Shown piece after piece: positions 4,147 to 53,642 of a stretch of 64,000 bases of DNA. The notes below the pieces were generated by a model that had not been told where the DNA came from, did no database searches, and was given only the letters and a program-made list of their open reading frames with translations. A program made the position numbers and the translations under genes. Position 1 is the stretch's first letter. Each line of letters starts with the position of its first letter. The DNA comes from an uncultured virus (IMG/VR IMGVR_UViG_3300035498_001578). Its lineage: Duplodnaviria > Heunggongvirae > Uroviricota > Caudoviricetes. The stretch lies in the IMG/VR virus record IMGVR_UViG_3300035498_001578. One strand, written 5' to 3'.

Positions 4147-5500
4147 TCATTAAATTATATATAGAGAAAATAATGTATAGAGAAATAACATATAAAGAAA
4201 CAATAATTAAATAACATATATAAATATAGCTCAATAAATGCCGTTTGATAATTGTTGCTTTCCCAAAAAACAGCTCAAAAATTACCCCGTAATTTAAGGG
4301 GGGTATGCCCAGCAATATATACAAAAAACGGGTTTTTTTGGCGACTTTTTTAGGCACTTTTTAGGCTATTTTTACCCTTATTTTTCTCTGTTTTTACCTA
4401 AAAATTAGCCTATTTTTAAGCATTTTTATACAATTTTAAAAAAATATATTTAAGAATTTTGTTGTGTTTATATACAAAATCCACCTTTTAAATATGTTAT
4501 TTTTGTATATAACGCTGATTTTTAGCTATTGTAATCTTGTTTAAAAACAAGGTTATTTTTAGGCGGTTTTTTAGCTATATTTTTGTAAAATAGCCGATTT
4601 TATCATTGTTAAATATATACAAATATCATATGGTGTTTTTGAACACATTAAACAAGCAATTTTTGAACATTTTGTTTAAAAAGCAAAGCTTATTTTTGTT
4701 AAATATTTAAAGCCGATTTTTCCATACCAATTTTGTTATAACTATTATTCAGATTATAACATAAAGTCGTAAATTCTGAAAAAAGGCGAAAATTTATTAT
4801 ACTATTTTTCATATAATGATTAAAAGAATTATACAATATTTGTTATATGGTATAAATTGGAAAAAATAGACACTTAAAAAATTAAGTTTTCATCAGACAA
4901 AACACAATACCGCTGTATATCGCTTTATTTTGCCCATATACGGCGATATTTTGCGTTGTGGTATAATTTATCTATACAAACGGATAAAAGGCAAATAAAG
5001 CCGTTTAAAGCGTATTTACAAGCATATACAAGCTAATACTCAATCAGATATCAAGAATAAAATTAGTTATTGCCTGCCGTCATACTCAAAAAGTCAAACA
5101 TAGGCTTATAATGCGTTATTTTGCATTTTACGGCGGTTCATTTGCATAGTCGATAAATTCCACGCATACAAGTTAAAACGCCGTTAAATAAGCAAACAAA
5201 CGGCAAATATGAGATATGTGCAAGCATTGAATATTATGAAATATGATATAAAACACACAACGCAAAAGTGTTTATTTTTATGTATTTTATGTAATAGAAG
5301 GAATTATTCAGAAAATCAAAATTAAAAGGCTTGCAAGTCCTTTAAATAAAGGCTTTACGGTTTTTTTGAAAATCAATATATACAATGCTGATTTTTTGCT
5401 GGAATCAGCTCAATATTATAAATATTGCACAATCAAAAGTATTAAACTAAAAAAGTTTTTGTGCAAATAAATGAAATTGCAAATTTGCTTAAAAAAGTAT

Positions 5501-10238: not shown

Positions 10239-10470
10239 ACAAACACCTCTTTAAAAATAAGCATTTAATTATAAATAGCTTTTTAAATTATAAAAGTTTT
10301 TATAAACATTTCACTATTAGTATTATATCACAAAATTTATTATTTGTCAATAACAAAAAAGGGTACTTGTATTAGTACCCTTAGTAAATATTAAATTACT
10401 TCTTTAGTAGTTACATTATCTGTTACATTGTTAGTTTCATTTTTTTCTTTAATTTTATTCACTGCTTTAT

Positions 10471-11826
10471 TTACTGCCTTAGACTTTTTCTTATAAGTTT
10501 TTTTTTAGGAACATCAGTAGTATTAGTTTCTATCTTCTTTCCATCAACATAAGTAATATTAGCAGATAAAGCAATATTCCTTGCAGCGTTTAAATCAGCA
10601 TTCATTTTAGCCCCACAAGCCTTACATTCAAAGTATCTACCATTCCTTTGACCTTCTTCCCAATGACCACAAGAAGAGCAATTTTGTGAGGTATGATATG
10701 GGTCTACTTTTCTTAATTCAATACCGTACTTAGCTGCTTTATATTCAATTTGTGATTGCAGTTGATAATAAGACCAATTTCTCAAAACAAATTTATCTGT
10801 ATCATAACCCTCTAAATCTTCCACATTGATATACTTAGCTTTATTAGCTATGGCAAAATCAACAATTTGTTTACTTATAGTATGATTATAAGTAGCAACA
10901 AAATTCTTTTCCTTTTCAGAAAATTTATTTACGGCTTTAAGTTTTTTATCTCTACCCTTACCACCATTAGAATTTTTCAAAGCACTATATAATCTTCTTC
11001 TTTGGTTTTGTATTTGCGTTCTTGTTTTCAAGAAATCATCTTTTGAACCTAAATACTGTTTTGCTATAGTATTATTAGTTGCACACACAGCAGGGATTGC
11101 AATACCAAGGTCAACACCTACAACAGTATTATTATCAAGCTCAATAATATTCTTAGGTATTCTCAAAGACAAATTAAGAATAATTTTATTATCTTCAATA
11201 GTAATTGAGCTATCCCTAACAGAATAAGTTTTATCTACTAAAATCTTTTTGAATACACTTCTCAATTCATAAGACTTTTTAACATTCTTACCCTTACCGA
11301 AATTAACTTTAAATTTAATATGATTTACCCAACCCATAGTTATAGATAAATCTTGACTATTTAAATGTTGTAAAAATTCTTCCTCGGTTGCATAATCATA
11401 ATTAAACTTCAAATTAATATGTCTTGTCATAAGAGGGGAGTCAGATTTATAGTTATTTATACTTCTCTCACCACGCTTTAAACCATTATTATATGCAGTA
11501 TCGAAATCACTTATAACCTTTTTAGATACTAAAGATTGAGTATCAACACCCGTACAGAAAACAATACCAGCAGAGTTATATAATGAATTATAATACGCAG
11601 CTCTACGCATTTCTTTTACTTCTTTTTTATAATCTTCATTAGTTTTATCGCAATTATACTTATAATATAAATTTGCATATTTACTCATAAAGAGATTAAG
11701 AGCTTTATATTGAGCTTTTTGTCCATCACGAATAAATTTATATACCCTATCTACTTCCGCTTTATCACCAAGTGGTGTGAGTGTAATTTTTCTACATATA
11801 ATCATTGTTTTATCTTCATTGCTCAT
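10471..11826 (-). CDS. cas12f: Cas12f1-like (type V-F / TnpB-related) RNA-guided nuclease, RuvC D-E-D intact
   Basis: VVGVDLG, INVEDL, NADLNAARNI, zinc finger CSSCG...CKACG; Cas12f1-type segments RGERSINNYKSDSPL, GGKGRDKKLK, LRNWSYYQLQSQIEYKA. Confidence 0.8.
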   Translation of the reverse strand: MSNEDKTMIICRKITLTPLGDKAEVDRVYKFIRDGQKAQYKALNLFMSKYANLYYKYNCDKTNEDYKKEVKEMRRAAYYNSLYNSAGIVFCTGVDTQSLVSKKVISDFDTAYNNGLKRGERSINNYKSDSPLMTRHINLKFNYDYATEEEFLQHLNSQDLSITMGWVNHIKFKVNFGKGKNVKKSYELRSVFKKILVDKTYSVRDSSITIEDNKIILNLSLRIPKNIIELDNNTVVGVDLGIAIPAVCATNNTIAKQYLGSKDDFLKTRTQIQNQRRRLYSALKNSNGGKGRDKKLKAVNKFSEKEKNFVATYNHTISKQIVDFAIANKAKYINVEDLEGYDTDKFVLRNWSYYQLQSQIEYKAAKYGIELRKVDPYHTSQNCSSCGHWEEGQRNGRYFECKACGAKMNADLNAARNIALSANITYVDGKKIETNTTDVPKKKLIRKSLRQ

Positions 11827-11846
11827 TTAAAAATTCCTCCTTTGAT

Positions 11847-12254
11847 TTATTCAGCCTTAACCCAATAGTTACCAATTTTTCCATCAGAACAATTCCAAGT
11901 ATCATATATCTTATTATCTTTAATACAAGTTATATGATGTGTGCCGATTTTAGCAATACAAGTACCTTTAAATAATTTACAAAATTCTTCACCTGTATAT
12001 TTTGTATTATCATATTTCTTCGGCTGCTTCATTTTTACCCAACCAATTTTTTGCATATACTTTTCAATGCCTTTTTTGTCATTTAAACAATAACCCGTTT
12101 CAAGCATTGTGTTTGTCATTTCCAATACAACATCTTTATAATCTTTTTCAGTTGCCAATGAAATAGCTCTAAAAACACAATCCCCTGTTATCCTATTCTT
12201 AGGGTTAGCATTGTAATAAGTAAAAGTGTCTGTATCTTCGACTATTCTTTTCAT
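11847..12254 (-). CDS. Phage-type hypothetical protein, probably co-transcribed with cas12f
   Basis: YYNANPKNRITGDCVFRAISLA...HITCIKDNKIYDTWNC; promoter at about 12316-12344; 20-bp gap to cas12f. Confidence 0.8.
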   Translation of the reverse strand: MKRIVEDTDTFTYYNANPKNRITGDCVFRAISLATEKDYKDVVLEMTNTMLETGYCLNDKKGIEKYMQKIGWVKMKQPKKYDNTKYTGEEFCKLFKGTCIAKIGTHHITCIKDNKIYDTWNCSDGKIGNYWVKAE

Positions 12255-12693
12255 ACATTAAGCTCCTTTCTTAAATCCTCTCTTAAAATTAGTGTTTTGT
12301 TTTTTAAGATAATTTATTATACCATACTTTTTATAGTTTGTCAATAAGTTTTTAATAAAAAAGAAGAATTAATGTTGATTATAAGATTATAATTTATACA
12401 TCATTATTCAATAATATTCATTATTTTATTCATTTTATCCCGTATATAAAAAGTTTTTTATTCATTTTTATTATAATTTATTCATTTTGTAAATTTAATA
12501 AATGATTAAATATTAAAAGAATAATCAGCAAATGAATTATTAAACTATTTATTAAATAATGAATAAAATAATTAAATATTCAGTTAAAAAAATATTTATA
12601 TTTAAATTTATGTATAATAGATAATTTAATAACAGGCAATTTAATGATGAATAAATAAAAGAGGATAGACAAATGTCTATCCTCTTAAAGGGA

Positions 12694-18536: not shown

Positions 18537-19037
18537 ATGGAAAATTCAAAATACATAATCAGCAACGCAAACGCATTAAAATTTATGTTAGGCGGTAACA
18601 GTGAGTTTACAATGCACTCATTAAAGACAGGTAATGATTTAACATATAAGCTCATCAGACTTGAAACAAATAGAGTTTTTCGCAAGAGAATGGATAGCAA
18701 TGTATTTATATATTTTATGAGTTATTCAATCGGTTATGGCAAATATGAATATGGTGGTGTTATTTACTATAACGATAAAACCAACCAATTTTATTTTAAA
18801 AAAGGCTACAAGGGTTTTGCAAAAGAAGAATCACAGGTTGCGAAATCAATCATATTTGTACTTAATAAATTTCATAAAAACAGATTTAACATACCCGTTG
18901 AGATTTACCATCATTGCAAGTGCGGTAGGTGTGGTAGAAGATTAACTAAAACAGGTTCAATTATAACAGGGTTAGGCGAAAAGTGTGCAAGAAAAGTACA
19001 GATACCCTATGCAAGAATAAATACTAAAATAAGTTAA
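18537..19037 (+). CDS. DUF6011-like zinc-binding protein (copy 1)
   Basis: C-terminal CGRCGRRLT...SI.TGLGEKCA; close paralog of the next gene. Confidence 0.75.
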   Translation: MENSKYIISNANALKFMLGGNSEFTMHSLKTGNDLTYKLIRLETNRVFRKRMDSNVFIYFMSYSIGYGKYEYGGVIYYNDKTNQFYFKKGYKGFAKEESQVAKSIIFVLNKFHKNRFNIPVEIYHHCKCGRCGRRLTKTGSIITGLGEKCARKVQIPYARINTKIS

Positions 19038-28929: not shown

Positions 28930-30174
28930 GTGGTGAGAAATAATTTGATAATAGTTGAACAACACATTTATAAAAAGACCAATAAACATTATCCACTATT
29001 AGATAAATTATGCTTTTTATCAAAAAATTTATACAATTCAACGCTATATGCTGTACGGCAACATTATTTTGAAACGGGTAAATATTTAAACTATTTTAAT
29101 GTAAATAAGTTATTTTTATCTGAAAATCAAAAAGACTATAGAGCATTCCCGTCAAGGGTTGGCAATATGACACAAAAGTTAGTTGATACAGGATTTAAAA
29201 GTTTCTTTGCTTTATTAAAATTAAAAAAGCAAGGTAAATATAACAAATCAGTAAATATGCCAAAATATTTAAAAAAGGACGGTAGGCAAGTCGTTCACTA
29301 TACTAATAAAGCATTATTAAGAAAAGAAAAAGGATTTATAGGTTTATCGGGAATACCATTATCGGATTTTAAAATAAAAGTCGAAGATAATAAAAAAATT
29401 AAGTTTATAAGAATTATTCCTAAAGGTGGATATATAATATTGGAAATAGCAAAAGAAATCCAAGAACCACCATTAAAAATAAATAATAATTACGCTGCTA
29501 TAGATTTAGGAATAAACAATTTAGCTACTGTAACTTCTAATGTAATGCAACCGTTTATAATAAACGGAAAACCTTTAAAATCTATAAACCAATATTACAA
29601 TAAAAAGTATAGTAAATTAAAATCAGAAGTAAACGGAAGATATAAAACTTATAAAACTTATAAAACAACAAAAAGAATGAATAGTTTATCTTTAAAGAGA
29701 AATAATAAAATAAAAGATTATTTACATAAAGCAAGTAGATTATTAGTGAATCATTTAGTTTCCAATAATATAAGCTTATTAATTATAGGTTATAATAAAG
29801 GATGGAAACAAGACACAAATATGGGAAATGTAAATAATCAAAATTTTGTTTTCATTCCTTTTCTTACATTTATTGATATGCTTATTTATAAATGTAAATT
29901 GGTAGGTATAGATGTTGTTTTAACCGAGGAAAATTATACAAGCCAATGTAGTTTTATTGACAATGAAAAAGTAACCAAGCATAAAAAATATGCTGGGAAA
30001 AGAGTTAAGCGTGGATTATTTAAAACAAGAAAAAAGAAATTTATTAACGCTGACGTAAACGGTAGTTATAATATAATGAAAAAATATTTAACTAAAAAGG
30101 CAGTATGGAATAAGAAAATTTTCTTAGACTGTATAGAGGTGTGCAATACGCCAACGATTTTTACTATTAAATAA
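28930..30174 (+). mobile_element. tnpB: Solo IS200/IS605-family TnpB (no tnpA nearby)
   Basis: SKNLYN, AIDLGINN, IIGYNKGWKQ, EENYTS, RVKRGLF, INADVNGSYNI. Confidence 0.9.
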
Positions 30175-32396: not shown

Positions 32397-32711
32397 TTAC
32401 GCTACAAGTTCTCTTACATTTTTATTTTTGGTGTACATTTCTCTCTCAACAAAACAATCACCAAATCTGTCATTCAAATTAAGCAAGTCAGATAATCTTA
32501 CATATCCCCACTCCCATACAACTACATAATGATAGCCAAAGAATAACCAATCTCCGTCCTCTTGCTGTTCACCCTCGGTAACTAACCAAGTGAAATTAGC
32601 ACGAGGGGAAAAGAACTTTACAATTACTTTCGCATTCATACCCTCACCATCGTGTGAGTAAATTGGGTTTTTTCTCAACTCGTTTTCGATTTCCTTAGTC
32701 ATTAACTTCAT
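32397..32711 (-). CDS. DUF2958-like protein
   Basis: VKFFSP...TWLVTEG...FFG...EWGYV.LSDL...VER. Confidence 0.75.
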   Translation of the reverse strand: MKLMTKEIENELRKNPIYSHDGEGMNAKVIVKFFSPRANFTWLVTEGEQQEDGDWLFFGYHYVVVWEWGYVRLSDLLNLNDRFGDCFVEREMYTKNKNVRELVA

Positions 32712-35288: not shown

Positions 35289-35527
35289 AATTAAAATCCC
35301 CTTTCGAATTAAATATAATGTATTGAGTTTACGCTTGTTAAGAGGAGCTATGTGCTTTCCCTTAACTTCTAAATATATTATAGCATACTATTTAGAAAAT
35401 GTCCAATACTTTAAACCTATATTTATTATAAGTTTTTTATTATATGGGTAAAATTAAATATTTTATCAAATCATTAAATACCAAATTTTTACTTGACAAC
35501 CAATTTATGATATGTTATTATAATATT

Positions 35528-35700
35528 GTGAAAATAATAAGCACCCATATTTTTGTAAAAAAGTATGTTATGGTGACTTCGGGTGATTTGCCATCCGTAG
35601 GGTGAGGGTAGCTCATTTCACATACAGTTCAACGCTGCTGTAGAGCTTTAAGGTTACACCGAATTGATGTAGTAATCCACCACTCACCAAATTTAGTATA
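35528..35700 (+). ncRNA. Candidate structured ncRNA
   Basis: TTGACA-17-TATTAT promoter at 35493-35521, no ORF, several nested stems. Confidence 0.55.
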
Positions 35701-35818
35701 TAATATAAACATTCTTTATTGATTGTTTACTTGTGTTTTTGTGAGAATAAAGTAAATATTTTAATTCAATATCGAATAGTTTATATTGATATATTAAAAA
35801 GTAAATTTAAACTTTTAT

Positions 35819-36025
35819 TTAATAATTGATTGTATTATAAGTTTTTTTATTTATTGCCCTGTTATAATTACTTTCATAATAACCATAAGTAATAAAGTTT
35901 TTATCTATCTGTGTATCATATCCAAAGGCTTGTATATCCAATTTCTTCATTGGTATACCTGTGATATTTTTTACTTTTCTTTTTAAACTATTCTCTCTAT
36001 CTCTACTTAATTTTGTCATAATCAT
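35819..36025 (-). CDS. Small basic protein
   Basis: 68 aa, directly after 36032-36571. Confidence 0.6.
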   Translation of the reverse strand: MIMTKLSRDRENSLKRKVKNITGIPMKKLDIQAFGYDTQIDKNFITYGYYESNYNRAINKKTYNTINY

Positions 36026-52691: not shown

Positions 52692-53642
52692 TTACTTTTC
52701 GAATAATACATTTTTACCATAAGTAATCTTTACAATGTTTTCAGTTGTTAAAGGTGTTCCATTCGATGAAAAATCTTTAGCGTTTAATTTTTTCAGCAAT
52801 TCTCTGCCTTTTGCACCGTTAGAAAAACTGCAATGACTAAATGTATTTCTATCAATAACATAGTCAATAACTTTCTTAATTTCAACTTTTTCTGAACCTG
52901 TTATTCCGTTCAATTCAAATGTAACATTTACTGTCTTTGCTACATCTTTGATTGCATTTAAAGGTTTTGTAATATCAATTTCCCACTGTTCAACTGTATC
53001 ATTGTTAGCAATCAAATTTTCAATATATTGAACTCTTGATTTCAACCATACAAAATCTTTTTCGTTTGATTTTACAACCTTTTCAATGATTTCTTCTTTT
53101 GGAGCATAACCGATTTCAGCCTTTAATATATCTGTATGTGATAACTTCTTTTCTGTTATATACTCTCTTTGCTCATCGAATACATTCAAATTTTTCAGTT
53201 GATAACGCCTTGCATCATTTCTCATAGTTGAAATTTTTTCTTCTGAAAAATCGGTATTGACTTTAATATCATTGTAAAACTTCTTTATTTCTGTTTCATA
53301 AATAGCTTTATATTCATCTGAAACCTCTGTAAAAGTTTTTACATTGTTGGGAAATGCCGTTTCATCTCTGCTTGCAAAAACCCATTCGTCAACAAGATAT
53401 TTATTATCCTTTACTAACATTGCAAAAGTCATTCTCTTGTGTTCCCCGTTTATCAAATGTTCGATTAATTCTTCTCTATCGTATGAGTATTCATAATAGA
53501 CATACTTAGCTCCAAAAATGTCATCTACTACTACTGAATATATTTGAGGTTCTGTATATCCTTTTTCTTGAATCTCAAATATAAACTGACTTTTATTTTC
53601 CTTTATACCCTGTGCAAACTTTTCAAATAATTTAATGTTCAT
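52692..53642 (-). CDS. Hypothetical protein, paralog of 51393-52481
   Basis: Same shared motifs; AAGGAGG RBS. Confidence 0.8.
   Translation of the reverse strand: MNIKLFEKFAQGIKENKSQFIFEIQEKGYTEPQIYSVVVDDIFGAKYVYYEYSYDREELIEHLINGEHKRMTFAMLVKDNKYLVDEWVFASRDETAFPNNVKTFTEVSDEYKAIYETEIKKFYNDIKVNTDFSEEKISTMRNDARRYQLKNLNVFDEQREYITEKKLSHTDILKAEIGYAPKEEIIEKVVKSNEKDFVWLKSRVQYIENLIANNDTVEQWEIDITKPLNAIKDVAKTVNVTFELNGITGSEKVEIKKVIDYVIDRNTFSHCSFSNGAKGRELLKKLNAKDFSSNGTPLTTENIVKITYGKNVLFEK

What the first reader, a model, noticed from the sequence alone, without database searches (positions are those of the whole stretch)
10471..12344. Orphan Cas12f1-like nuclease with intact RuvC motifs and no adjacent array or obvious guide locus
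Seen: 451 aa with D-E-D motifs and zinc finger; second gene of a two-gene unit behind a consensus promoter; a terminator follows about 90 bp after the stop (GGGTAC/GTACCC at 10361-10380). No transposon ends, tnpA, cas1/cas2 or repeats were seen nearby. Known: Cas12f1 needs a tracrRNA plus crRNA, and TnpB omegaRNAs normally overlap the gene 3' end. Inference: a domesticated nuclease whose guide is supplied in trans from elsewhere in the element or from host crRNAs.
Basis: partly seen in the sequence, partly recalled or inferred. Interest (0 to 1): 0.75.

Follow-up and report, generated by a model that had tools for sequence, protein, structure and literature searches.

The report
Phage Cas12f1 with scattered guide cassettes
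The gene is a real miniature CRISPR nuclease (Cas12f1) of a huge phage, and it is not guide-less: its guide RNA is made from a small stand-alone cassette 24 kb away, an unusual scattered layout of a known kind of system.

Summary
In detail: window 10471-11826(-) encodes a 451-aa protein with invariant D239/E336/D411 and a CxxC..CxxC zinc ribbon. It is the second gene behind a perfect sigma-70 promoter and is followed by a terminator. No array, tnpA, cas1 or cas2 is nearby.

It is not an IS-type TnpB. Its closest solved relatives are CnCas12f1 (E 8e-95) and RhCas12f (E 9e-78). In 48 of 53 related loci, mostly from large phage contigs, a conserved tracrRNA lies within 3 kb of the gene, and 10 of 13 examined carry mini-arrays.

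The window's lineage differs. The syntenic sister phage (379 kb, 68% identical protein, dN/dS 0.22) also has no adjacent guide locus. It carries five dispersed cassettes instead, each a promoter plus tracrRNA plus 1-9 repeats, with no cas gene beside the three full arrays.

The window has one such cassette at 35493-35841(+): promoter, structured tracrRNA, a single 28-nt repeat that pairs with the anti-repeat, and a 35-nt guide.

"Orphan/domesticated" and "host crRNAs" are not supported. Targets and activity remain inferred. This is a new variant of a known kind.

The parts
12316..12344 (-). sigma-70-type promoter of the two-gene unit (TTGACA-N17-TATAAT, TG extension)
   Evidence: 12 of 12 matches. 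Conserved in the sister phage (alignment A2).
11847..12254 (-). first gene of the unit, 135 aa, unknown function (phrog_3754)
   Evidence: 90% aa identity to the sister phage, dN/dS 0.08. A weak Atlas lead to a C39-like peptidase, score 0.90.
10471..11826 (-). cas12f1 effector gene, 451 aa; RuvC D239/E336/D411; zinc ribbon C383, C386, C401, C404
10359..10382 (-). intrinsic terminator of the unit
   Evidence: The sequence is not conserved in the sister phage, which has a different hairpin at the same place.
35493..35521 (+). sigma-70-type promoter of the guide cassette (TTGACA-N17-TATTAT)
   Evidence: 11 of 12 with TG. The same promoter heads four of the five cassettes of the sister phage aligned; the fifth has TTGACA..TATAAT.
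35577..35714 (+). tracrRNA-like RNA: 5' hairpin 35580-35597, long stem GGGTGAGGG..CCACCACTCACC 35600-35688, anti-repeat 35692-35714
   Evidence: blastn to the array-linked cassettes of G001, E 1e-37 and 94% identity to the G001 83-kb cassette. RNAalifold on 5 copies gives 31 pairs, 6 with compensatory changes. Same layout as the family tracrRNA model R1 and, by eye, as the published RhCas12f1 tracrRNA.
35779..35806 (+). single CRISPR repeat (28 nt, ends AAGTAAAT)
   Evidence: It is the only site in the window, on either strand, with at least 22 of 30 matches to the G001 array repeat (24 of 30). It pairs with the anti-repeat in the MFE fold. Duplex with its own tracr tail is -14.8 kcal/mol, against -8.2 to -11.0 for the repeats of other cassettes.
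35807..35841 (+). 35-nt guide (spacer-like) segment followed by a T-run; no target found

Best explanation
The gene encodes the Cas12f1 effector of a phage-borne type V-F CRISPR system that has no adaptation genes. In this phage lineage the guide-RNA loci are detached from the effector gene. They are scattered over the genome as self-contained cassettes, each with a host-type promoter, its own tracrRNA copy, and a mini-array of 1 to 9 repeats.

In the window the effector is transcribed with a 135-aa gene from a consensus early-type promoter. A cassette 23.7 kb away is transcribed from a similar promoter into one RNA. In that RNA the tracrRNA tail folds back on the single repeat, leaving the AAGTAAAT handle and a fixed 35-nt guide at the 3' end, much like a natural single-guide RNA.

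The protein, probably as a dimer like its solved relatives, would bind this RNA and the crRNAs of any arrays elsewhere in the genome. It would then cut DNA that matches the guide next to a C-rich PAM. The most likely targets are co-infecting related phages.

Shown here: gene intact and under purifying selection; cassette present, structured, and co-varying with its repeat; arrays with the same tracrRNA in the sister phage; no other Cas12f-type effector there.

Inferred: binding, processing, cleavage, PAM and the biological target.
For: Protein identity:
- Top solved relatives are 8HR5 CnCas12f1 (E 8e-95) and 9NZP RhCas12f (E 9e-78); ISDra2 TnpB scores only 3e-6. The PDB identities come from passages of PMC13186708.
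- D239, E336, D411 and zinc-ribbon cysteines C383, C386 and C401 are invariant in 14 of 14 family members aligned.
- dN/dS is 0.217 against the syntenic ortholog at dS 1.13.

Family context:
- A tracrRNA covariance model built from 19 elements hits within 3 kb of the gene in 20 of 22 viral loci at E<=1 and 28 of 31 metagenome loci at E<=0.01.
- The two viral loci without a hit are the window's sister phage.
- Mini-arrays were seen in 10 of the 13 loci given to the repeat finder, out of 22 fetched.

Sister phage G001 (379,029 bp):
- Arrays of 8+1, 3 and 9 repeats lie at 278.5, 332.5 and 354.7 kb.
- There are five promoter+tracr cassettes in all.
- Pfam finds no cas family in 29 flanking ORFs, and no Cas1 or Cas2 anywhere in the record.
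- The only other TnpB-like hits are weak (25-32% identity). The one that was looked at is an ordinary IS605 tnpA-tnpB pair.

Window cassette:
- blastn E 1e-37 to the array-linked cassettes.
- RNA fold -68.1 kcal/mol, z -3.96, with 0 of 200 shuffles as stable, and the anti-repeat paired to the repeat.
- 6 of 31 consensus pairs show compensatory changes.
- Cognate tail/repeat duplexes are the most stable within two compatibility groups.

Published comparison: the RhCas12f1 30-nt repeat ends GGAATGTAAAT and its tracrRNA starts with the same 5' hairpin (supplement row read, compared by eye).

PAM hint: the two significant protospacer matches of G001 guides carry CCA at offset 0 or 1 on the 5' side. 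CCA frequency is 0.006-0.008 per position. This fits the 5'-CCD / CCCA/TCCA PAM of RhCas12f1 (PMC10090079, passages and supplement).
Against: - No RNA or activity data exist, and no sequencing run holding this DNA could be listed.
- The window's guide has no target. There are 0 exact 26-mer matches in IMG/VR. The best matches in the window and in G001 (26-27 of 35) lie within the shuffled background. The single-repeat cassette could therefore be a decaying remnant.
- The window holds only 64 kb of a genome likely near 380 kb, so whether this phage has full arrays is unknown.
- The general family model R1 does not reach significance on the window. The partial hit at 35580-35617 scores 11.5 bits, E 4.1, and the best hit, 19.6 bits, lies elsewhere. 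The link to the family tracrRNA therefore runs through G001's array-linked copies (R1 E 0.09-0.5) and through comparison by eye.
- The terminator scan found no intrinsic terminator after the guide.
- External targets were found for none of the three guides scanned.
- The PAM inference rests on two post-hoc cases.
Confidence: 0.75

Rival explanations
1. The effector is real and works only with arrays elsewhere in this phage's genome, outside the window. The window's single-repeat cassette would be a decayed array or merely an extra tracrRNA source, and its 35-nt 'guide' would be meaningless flanking DNA.
For: The guide has no target. The repeat is degenerate, with 24 of 30 matches to the array repeat. 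The guide region is simply homologous, at about 75%, to the 3' end of a small convergent gene that in G001 lies at 74.3 kb without a cassette. No terminator-like site follows it.
Against: The repeat has co-varied with its own anti-repeat: -14.8 kcal/mol with its own tail, against -8.2 to -11.0 for that tail with the other cassettes' repeats. The promoter, tracrRNA and repeat are kept at 87-94% identity between the two phages. The in-cis duplex is predicted in both copies.
Confidence: 0.3
2. One reading: a domesticated, truly orphan nuclease. It would use host crRNAs or act without its own guide, for example as a regulator or a guide-independent nuclease.
For: No array or tracrRNA lies within 3 kb in the window or in the sister phage. 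The position is stably inherited, inside an operon with an unrelated gene.
Against: A homologous tracrRNA/repeat cassette is present in the window, and five are present in the sister phage. Their repeats and tracrRNA resemble those of the protein's nearest characterized relative. The catalytic residues are intact, unlike nuclease-dead domesticated TnpB or Cas12 forms. No host is known, so host repeats cannot be compared.
Confidence: 0.07
3. An IS200/IS605- or IS607-type TnpB of a resident insertion sequence, with an omegaRNA that overlaps its own 3' end.
For: NCBIfam guided_TnpB scores 183 bits, above its cut-off of 100. PHROGs label the family 'transposase'. The window and G001 do carry genuine IS-type TnpB genes elsewhere.
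Against: The specific models fail: IS200_TnpB 68.6 bits against a 425 cut-off, and IS607_TnpB 53 against 350. There is no tnpA and there are no repeats at the flanks. G001 holds a single copy. The gene is syntenic in a phage that has diverged to dS 1.1. The region 3' of the stop is not conserved except for the next promoter. No stretch of the gene shows suppressed synonymous change; pS is 0.41-0.71 in all 60-codon windows. Rfam finds nothing.
Confidence: 0.03

Closest known systems
RhCas12f1 (Ruminiclostridium herbifermentans) and CnCas12f1 (Clostridium novyi), type V-F1 CRISPR-Cas
   Same: Protein: E 9e-78 and 8e-95 to the solved chains, with the same D-E-D RuvC and zinc ribbon and a similar size (451 aa against 415 and 497). 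RNA: a 28-30-nt repeat ending (A/T)GTAAAT, and a tracrRNA with the same 5' hairpin and a GAGGG..CCACTC stem (compared by eye). The CCA 5' flanks fit the C-rich PAM.
   Different: The published systems were picked for a native cas12f-tracrRNA-array organisation; their tracrRNAs were sought between the Cas12f gene and the array (PMC10090079, passages). Here the effector has no guide locus within 3 kb. The tracrRNA is multiplied, with one copy for each mini-array, and the cassettes lie 24 kb to about 300 kb from the gene. The tracrRNA stem carries a long insertion. The window's cassette has only one repeat.
Type V-F (Cas14-like) systems of huge phages (Al-Shayeb et al. 2020, PMC7162821)
   Same: Encoded by a huge phage; no Cas1, Cas2 or Cas4; compact arrays; conserved catalytic residues; inter-phage targeting proposed (passages read).
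   Different: The passages I read describe loci and compact arrays. They do not describe effector-detached, promoter+tracrRNA+array cassettes or single-repeat fixed-guide units. I did not see the paper's supplements or Extended Data trees, which may include this lineage.
TnpB omegaRNA (IS200/IS605) and transposon-CRISPR intermediates (TranC)
   Same: The single-repeat cassette gives one continuous RNA: scaffold, then a fixed guide that is simply the DNA flanking the scaffold's 3' end. An omegaRNA has the same arrangement. LaTranC appears among the distant structural matches (E 5e-6).
   Different: The scaffold does not overlap the nuclease gene. It has a tracr/anti-repeat/repeat architecture and its own promoter. 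No transposase or IS ends were found.
Viral mini-arrays and solitary repeat units (SRUs/Racr) (review PMC11656645)
   Same: [quoted passage not shown]
   Different: Those elements copy the host's repeats and exploit or inhibit host Cas proteins. Here the cassettes bring their own tracrRNA, and the phage brings the matching effector.

Membership tests
Type V-F1 CRISPR-Cas (Cas12f1) | Effector homologous to experimentally characterized Cas12f1 nucleases | tested here: met
   8HR5 CnCas12f1 at 322 bits and 9NZP RhCas12f at 266 bits, then further Cas12f chains at 108-173 bits; ISDra2 TnpB scores 30 bits.
Type V-F1 CRISPR-Cas (Cas12f1) | Intact RuvC D-E-D triad and C-terminal zinc ribbon; size 400-700 aa | tested here: met
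   D239, E336, D411, C383, C386 and C401 are invariant in 14 of 14 sequences; C404 is present in the window; 451 aa.
Type V-F1 CRISPR-Cas (Cas12f1) | tracrRNA with an anti-repeat that pairs with the CRISPR repeat | tested here: met
   Window 35577-35714. The anti-repeat pairs with the repeat in the MFE fold. 6 pairs covary. The cognate duplex is the most stable.
Type V-F1 CRISPR-Cas (Cas12f1) | CRISPR array (two or more repeats with spacers) next to the effector gene | tested here: not met
   No array in the 64-kb window. There is one repeat only, 23.7 kb away. The sister phage has arrays 220-300 kb from the gene.
Type V-F1 CRISPR-Cas (Cas12f1) | PAM-dependent, RNA-guided dsDNA cleavage as an RNA-bound dimer | not testable with these tools
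   Only two protospacer flanks (CCA) hint at a C-rich PAM.
NCBIfam CRISPR_Cas12f2 (NF049972) | Score above the curated cut-off of 450 bits | tested here: not met
   120.9 bits. It is not a Cas12f2.
IS200/IS605 or IS607 TnpB | Score above the cut-off of the element-specific models | tested here: not met
   IS200_TnpB 68.6 bits against 425; IS607_TnpB 53.1 against 350. Only the broad guided_TnpB subfamily passes, 183 against 100.
IS200/IS605 or IS607 TnpB | Adjacent tnpA and/or IS ends; several copies; variable insertion sites | tested here: not met
   Neighbours have no transposase family. One copy in G001. Same position in both phages.
IS200/IS605 or IS607 TnpB | omegaRNA overlapping the 3' end of the gene and the right end | tested here: not met
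   No conservation 3' of the stop. No dip in synonymous divergence. No Rfam hit. RNA data are lacking.
Nuclease-dead domesticated TnpB/Cas12 (TldR, Cas12m/k-like) | Loss of RuvC catalytic residues | tested here: not met
   All three catalytic residues are kept.

The most novel reading that the evidence does not exclude
The single-repeat cassettes may be omegaRNA-like selfish units. Because the guide is whatever DNA follows the repeat, a cassette that lands in a gene makes a guide against the uninterrupted allele. In a mixed infection the phage's Cas12f1 would cut cassette-free relatives at that site, and recombinational repair would copy the cassette in. That would be homing, a return of a CRISPR effector to TnpB-style behaviour.

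The hint is in G001. Its 83-kb cassette replaces the 3' 83 codons of a DUF2958 gene that is intact in the window phage. Its guide matches the window's intact allele at 29 of 35 positions (shuffled maximum 24), with ACCA on the 5' side.
Probability: 0.12. Interest if true: 0.8.

Novelty: new variant of a known kind. Interest (0 to 1): 0.55.

Why it matters
This shows that an apparently guide-less Cas12f or TnpB gene in a large phage should not be called orphan until the whole genome has been searched for the family's tracrRNA.

It also documents a modular layout: one effector gene, and many movable promoter-tracrRNA-array cassettes whose anti-repeats co-vary with their own repeats. That layout could explain how phages without Cas1-Cas2 shuffle and keep guides.

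The natural one-transcript tracr-repeat-guide unit sits between a CRISPR array and a TnpB omegaRNA, so it bears on how type V systems arose. The compact 451-aa nuclease with its natural single-guide-like RNA is an ordinary candidate for bench characterization.

Tried and rejected
- Repeat remnant in the terminator. My first impression was that the terminator region (10380-10400) hides a degenerate repeat. An nhmmer profile of 17 family repeats found nothing there or elsewhere in the window (best E 2.4), so I dropped this.
- Family tracrRNA model R1 on the window with filters off. Nothing was significant. The best hit, 19.6 bits, E 0.077, lies at 18795-18858(-) inside a DUF6011 gene and is taken as chance.
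- Conserved noncoding block upstream of the operon (12370-12500) as a candidate guide locus. It is less stable than its shuffles on both strands, and a second copy sits in G001 at 107.7 kb, so it looks regulatory.
- Own-genome search: no genome is held for this window.
- Closer relatives. No isolate phage holds a relative covering 80% of the protein; all 444 records are below 60% identity. The metagenome scan gave nothing closer than 62% best-segment identity, on short fragments (L054, L055).
- External protospacers. Two G001 spacers found only copies of the same arrays in G001-like contigs (5 and 4 stretches). The window guide found 0. 67 unique spacers from 32 related loci, searched against all fetched DNA, gave 1 marginal hit: 24 nt with 2 mismatches, E 0.005.
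- Sequencing runs: none was listed, and no RNA holder was listed.
- Earlier findings of this scan: none.
- Host clue from the ligase: the best isolate match is Bacillus phage G at 37% identity, which is not informative.
Full report
**The observation**

The window is very AT-rich (GC 0.20-0.33 in 2-kb steps). It is densely packed with short genes, each behind repeated promoter cassettes. Of the 51 window ORFs scanned against Pfam, 12 matched a family at the E-value cut-offs used. The matches include an NAD-dependent ligase, a sliding clamp and cell-wall hydrolases.

ORF 10471-11826(-) encodes 451 aa. It matches Pfam Cas12f1-like_TNB (4e-25) and OrfB_IS605, and NCBIfam guided_TnpB (183 bits, cut-off 100).

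A perfect TTGACA-N17-TATAAT promoter lies at 12344-12316. A 135-aa gene follows, then the nuclease gene, then a hairpin terminator at 10382-10359. The next perfect promoter is at 10350-10322. Tandem-repeat and dispersed-repeat scans and my own period-45-90 scan found no array in the window. No tnpA, cas1, cas2 or cas4 family was found.

**What the protein is**

Against all PDB chains the best matches are:
- 8HR5 (E 8e-95) and 9NZP (E 9e-78). Passages of PMC13186708 identify these as the CnCas12f1 and RhCas12f complexes.
- Other Cas12f chains follow: 9NZO/9NZR and the 432-aa 8J3R/8J1J/8J12 chains (names not given by the tool), AsCas12f1 (7WJU), a further 446-aa chain (8DZJ) that the tool does not name, Cas12f (9NZQ), Cas12f/Cas12f1 (7L48), SpCas12f1 (9I8Y) and Cas14a.1 (7C7L).
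- ISDra2 TnpB scores only 30 bits.

The element-specific TnpB models and the Cas12f2 model are all far below their cut-offs.

In an alignment with 13 relatives, D239, E336, D411 and zinc-ribbon cysteines C383, C386 and C401 are invariant; the window also has C404.

So it clusters with Cas12f1, not with IS-borne TnpB.

**Relatives and their RNA**

A scan of IMG/VR gave 22 loci, 21 of them on contigs of 35-379 kb (one on a 19.9-kb contig). A metagenome scan gave 31 more.

Next to the more distant relatives (42-62% identity) I found mini-arrays with 24-40-nt repeats at 63-68-nt spacing. They were present in 10 of the 13 loci I gave to the repeat finder, out of 22 fetched.

In front of each array lies a conserved element: a 5' hairpin, a GAAAGTGAG..CTCACTAAA stem, and a tail complementary to that array's repeat. 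This is a tracrRNA.

A covariance model built from 19 copies (R1) hits 20 of 22 viral loci at E<=1 and 28 of 31 metagenome loci at E<=0.01. Some loci (L016-L018) carry three tandem tracrRNA+array units, with different but matching repeat/anti-repeat pairs (by eye).

**The window's own lineage**

The two viral loci without an R1 hit, L001 and L002, are one phage: G001 at 379,029 bp, with G002 a sub-fragment of it. Its protein is 68% identical by tblastn best segment (66% in the global alignments). The locus is syntenic with the window: the 135-aa gene, the nuclease gene, then four small genes.

About half of the window aligns to G001 at 63-94% nucleotide identity, in rearranged order.

The nuclease gene has dN/dS 0.217 at dS 1.13. 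No 60-codon stretch shows suppressed synonymous change. The DNA after the stop is not conserved apart from the next promoter. There is therefore no sign of an omegaRNA at the 3' end, and the gene has been inherited in place under purifying selection.

**Where the guides are**

Scanning the whole of G001 found three arrays far from the gene, which lies at 54.3-55.7 kb:
- 8 repeats plus a degenerate one at 278.4-279.0 kb;
- 3 repeats at 332.4-332.6 kb;
- 9 repeats at 354.7-355.25 kb.

The repeats are 30 nt, ending GGAAAGTAAAT, and the spacers are 34-37 nt.

Each array is preceded by a sigma-70-like promoter and a ~150-nt structured RNA. That RNA has the family's 5' hairpin and a GAAAGGTGAGGG..CCACCACTCACCAAA stem split by a long insertion. 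Its tail pairs with the repeat. The weak R1 hits in G001 and G002 (E 0.09-0.54) all fall on these elements.

Two further cassettes exist. One at 4.0 kb has two degenerate repeats. One at 83.3 kb has a single degenerate repeat.

Pfam finds no cas family in 29 ORFs flanking the three arrays. Those ORFs are replication and nucleotide-metabolism genes. G001 has no Cas1 or Cas2 match. The window protein has only three other weak tblastn hits in G001, at 25-32% identity. The one I looked at, 655-1755, is a standard IS605-type tnpB beside a tnpA-like ORF.

**The cassette in the window**

blastn of the G001 cassettes against the window hits one place, 35510-35758(+) (E 1e-37). This site is 94% identical to the 83-kb cassette over the tracrRNA. 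Reading the sequence gives:
- promoter TTGACA-N17-TATTAT at 35493-35521 (11 of 12 matches);
- 5' hairpin at 35580-35597;
- long stem at 35600-35688;
- anti-repeat at 35692-35714;
- a 64-nt linker;
- one repeat, GTTTATATTGATATATTAAAAAGTAAAT, at 35779-35806;
- 35 nt of guide at 35807-35841, followed by a T-run and the end of a convergent small ORF.

This repeat is the only site in the window with at least 22 of 30 matches to the G001 repeat.

The 286-nt RNA folds to -68.1 kcal/mol (z -3.96; 0 of 200 shuffles as stable), with the anti-repeat paired to the repeat. The G001 83-kb copy does the same (z -2.54; 2 of 200).

Across the five aligned copies, 6 of 31 consensus pairs show compensatory changes.

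Duplex energies fall into two compatibility groups. The window and 83-kb tails prefer the window repeat: -14.8 and -13.9 kcal/mol, against -7.8 to -11.0 for the other repeats. The 83-kb tail's own repeat (-10.1) is not preferred. The four array-type tails prefer array-type repeats: -9.8 to -17.8, against -5.9 to -9.5.

The published RhCas12f1 row reads the same way by eye. It gives PAM CCCA/TCCA, a 30-nt repeat ending GGAATGTAAAT, and a tracrRNA beginning with the same hairpin followed by a GAGGG..CCACTC stem (supplement of PMC10090079).

**What the guides hit**

Of 22 guides tested against the window and G001 with shuffled controls, two stand out.
- The terminal spacer of array 1 matches G001's own helicase gene, 2 kb away, at 34 of 35 positions (shuffled maximum 29). 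The single mismatch is at guide position 3, and CCA lies directly 5' of the site.
- The guide of the 83-kb cassette matches the window at 32651-32685 at 29 of 35 positions (shuffled maximum 24), with ACCA one base from the 5' end.

A third match, 28 of 34 against a shuffled maximum of 26, is marginal.

CCA occurs at 0.006-0.008 per position. RhCas12f1 uses 5' C-rich PAMs, CCD after engineering, with CCA the best (PMC10090079 passages). These two flanks are post-hoc observations.

The 83-kb cassette sits where the window has 516 bp holding most of a DUF2958 gene (window ORF 32397-32711). Only codons 1-21 of that gene remain in G001, and they form the 'guide'. Likewise the window's guide is the tail of a small gene that in G001 lies at 74.3 kb without a cassette. 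Cassettes thus sit at different sites in the two phages.

Exact-word scans of IMG/VR with two G001 spacers returned only the same arrays in G001-like contigs. The window guide returned nothing.

**Mechanism, with what is shown and what is inferred**

Shown:
- an intact, selected Cas12f1 gene behind an early-type promoter;
- a separate cassette with its own promoter, encoding a structured tracrRNA, a co-varying repeat and a 3' guide;
- array-bearing versions of the same cassette in the sister phage, with no other matching effector.

Inferred from the solved relatives and from PMC12255294 (passages: Cas12f1 acts as a dimer on one ~200-nt RNA): the protein binds the tracr:repeat duplex and cuts PAM-flanked matching DNA.

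Inferred from PMC7162821 (passages) and from the near-self match with a seed mismatch: the targets are closely related competing phages.

**Against the reading**

There are no expression or activity data. The window guide has no known target and no terminator-like site after it, so this cassette may be a remnant. Only 64 kb of the genome is visible.

**Comparison and novelty**

Type V-F systems in huge phages, without adaptation genes and with compact arrays, are in print (PMC7162821, passages). Viral mini-arrays and solitary repeats that copy host repeats are also in print (PMC11656645, passages).

My five full-text searches and the passages I read turned up no description of the following:
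- an effector detached from all guide loci;
- one tracrRNA copy per mini-array, each under its own promoter;
- two co-varying tracr/repeat flavours in one genome;
- single-repeat units that form a natural one-transcript guide.

I did not read the supplements or Extended Data of PMC7162821, which may bear on this.

I file it as a new variant of a known kind. 'Orphan' is not.

Noticed in passing
window 28930-30174 (+): A second TnpB-family ORF of 414 aa. It scores 174 bits on guided_TnpB and 7e-22 on OrfB_IS605, and is about 25% identical to the Cas12f1. It looks like an IS-type TnpB inside the phage. No tnpA was seen beside it, and its omegaRNA was not looked for.
   Followed up: partly
window 12370-12500 (-): A noncoding block just upstream of the operon promoter, rich in AATGAATAAA repeats. 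It is 91-93% identical to two places in the sister phage: G001 53362-53470, in front of its cas12f operon, and 107728-107845. That is better conserved than the genes around it. It is not structured as RNA and is probably a regulator-binding cassette.
   Followed up: partly
window 31294-52609 and elsewhere: Families of 50-130-nt intergenic cassettes are repeated 6-15 times (D1-D8). They carry consensus TTGACA..TATAAT promoters or a second motif (GTTTACAAGTATATTATAGCA). Nearly every small gene has its own promoter and hairpin terminator.
   Followed up: no
G001 276481-276515 (L079) against array 1 at 278476-278510: A phage spacer matches the phage's own helicase gene at 34 of 35 positions, with CCA on the 5' side and the only mismatch at guide position 3. 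The gene is ResIII/Helicase_C with a LAGLIDADG insert. This looks like a spacer against a near-identical relative, from which the phage's own allele escapes.
   Followed up: partly
L016, L017, L018 about 4200-4900: One cas12f gene is followed by three tandem tracrRNA+mini-array units. Their repeats differ, and each matches its own anti-repeat (seen by eye; R1 hits).
   Followed up: partly
window 35741-35756; G001 cassettes: All six cassettes carry GTGAGAATA(A/T)AGTAAAT downstream of the tracrRNA. This mimics the 3' handle of the repeat (AAGTAAAT). Its role is unknown; it could be a leader-proximal pseudo-repeat.
   Followed up: no
G001 655-2177 (L066): An ordinary IS200/IS605-type pair inside the sister phage: a 366-aa TnpB plus a 92-aa TnpA-like ORF.
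   Followed up: partly
L003/L004 4335-4460: These relatives have a tracrRNA downstream of the gene but no array by the repeat finder. By eye a single repeat-like segment (..AAATTTACACAATAATCAAAAT) follows. Single-repeat units may therefore occur in other branches of the family.
   Followed up: no
window 18795-18858 (-): The best R1 hit in the window (19.6 bits, E 0.077) lies antisense inside a DUF6011 gene. It has no similarity to the G001 cassettes and is taken as chance.
   Followed up: partly
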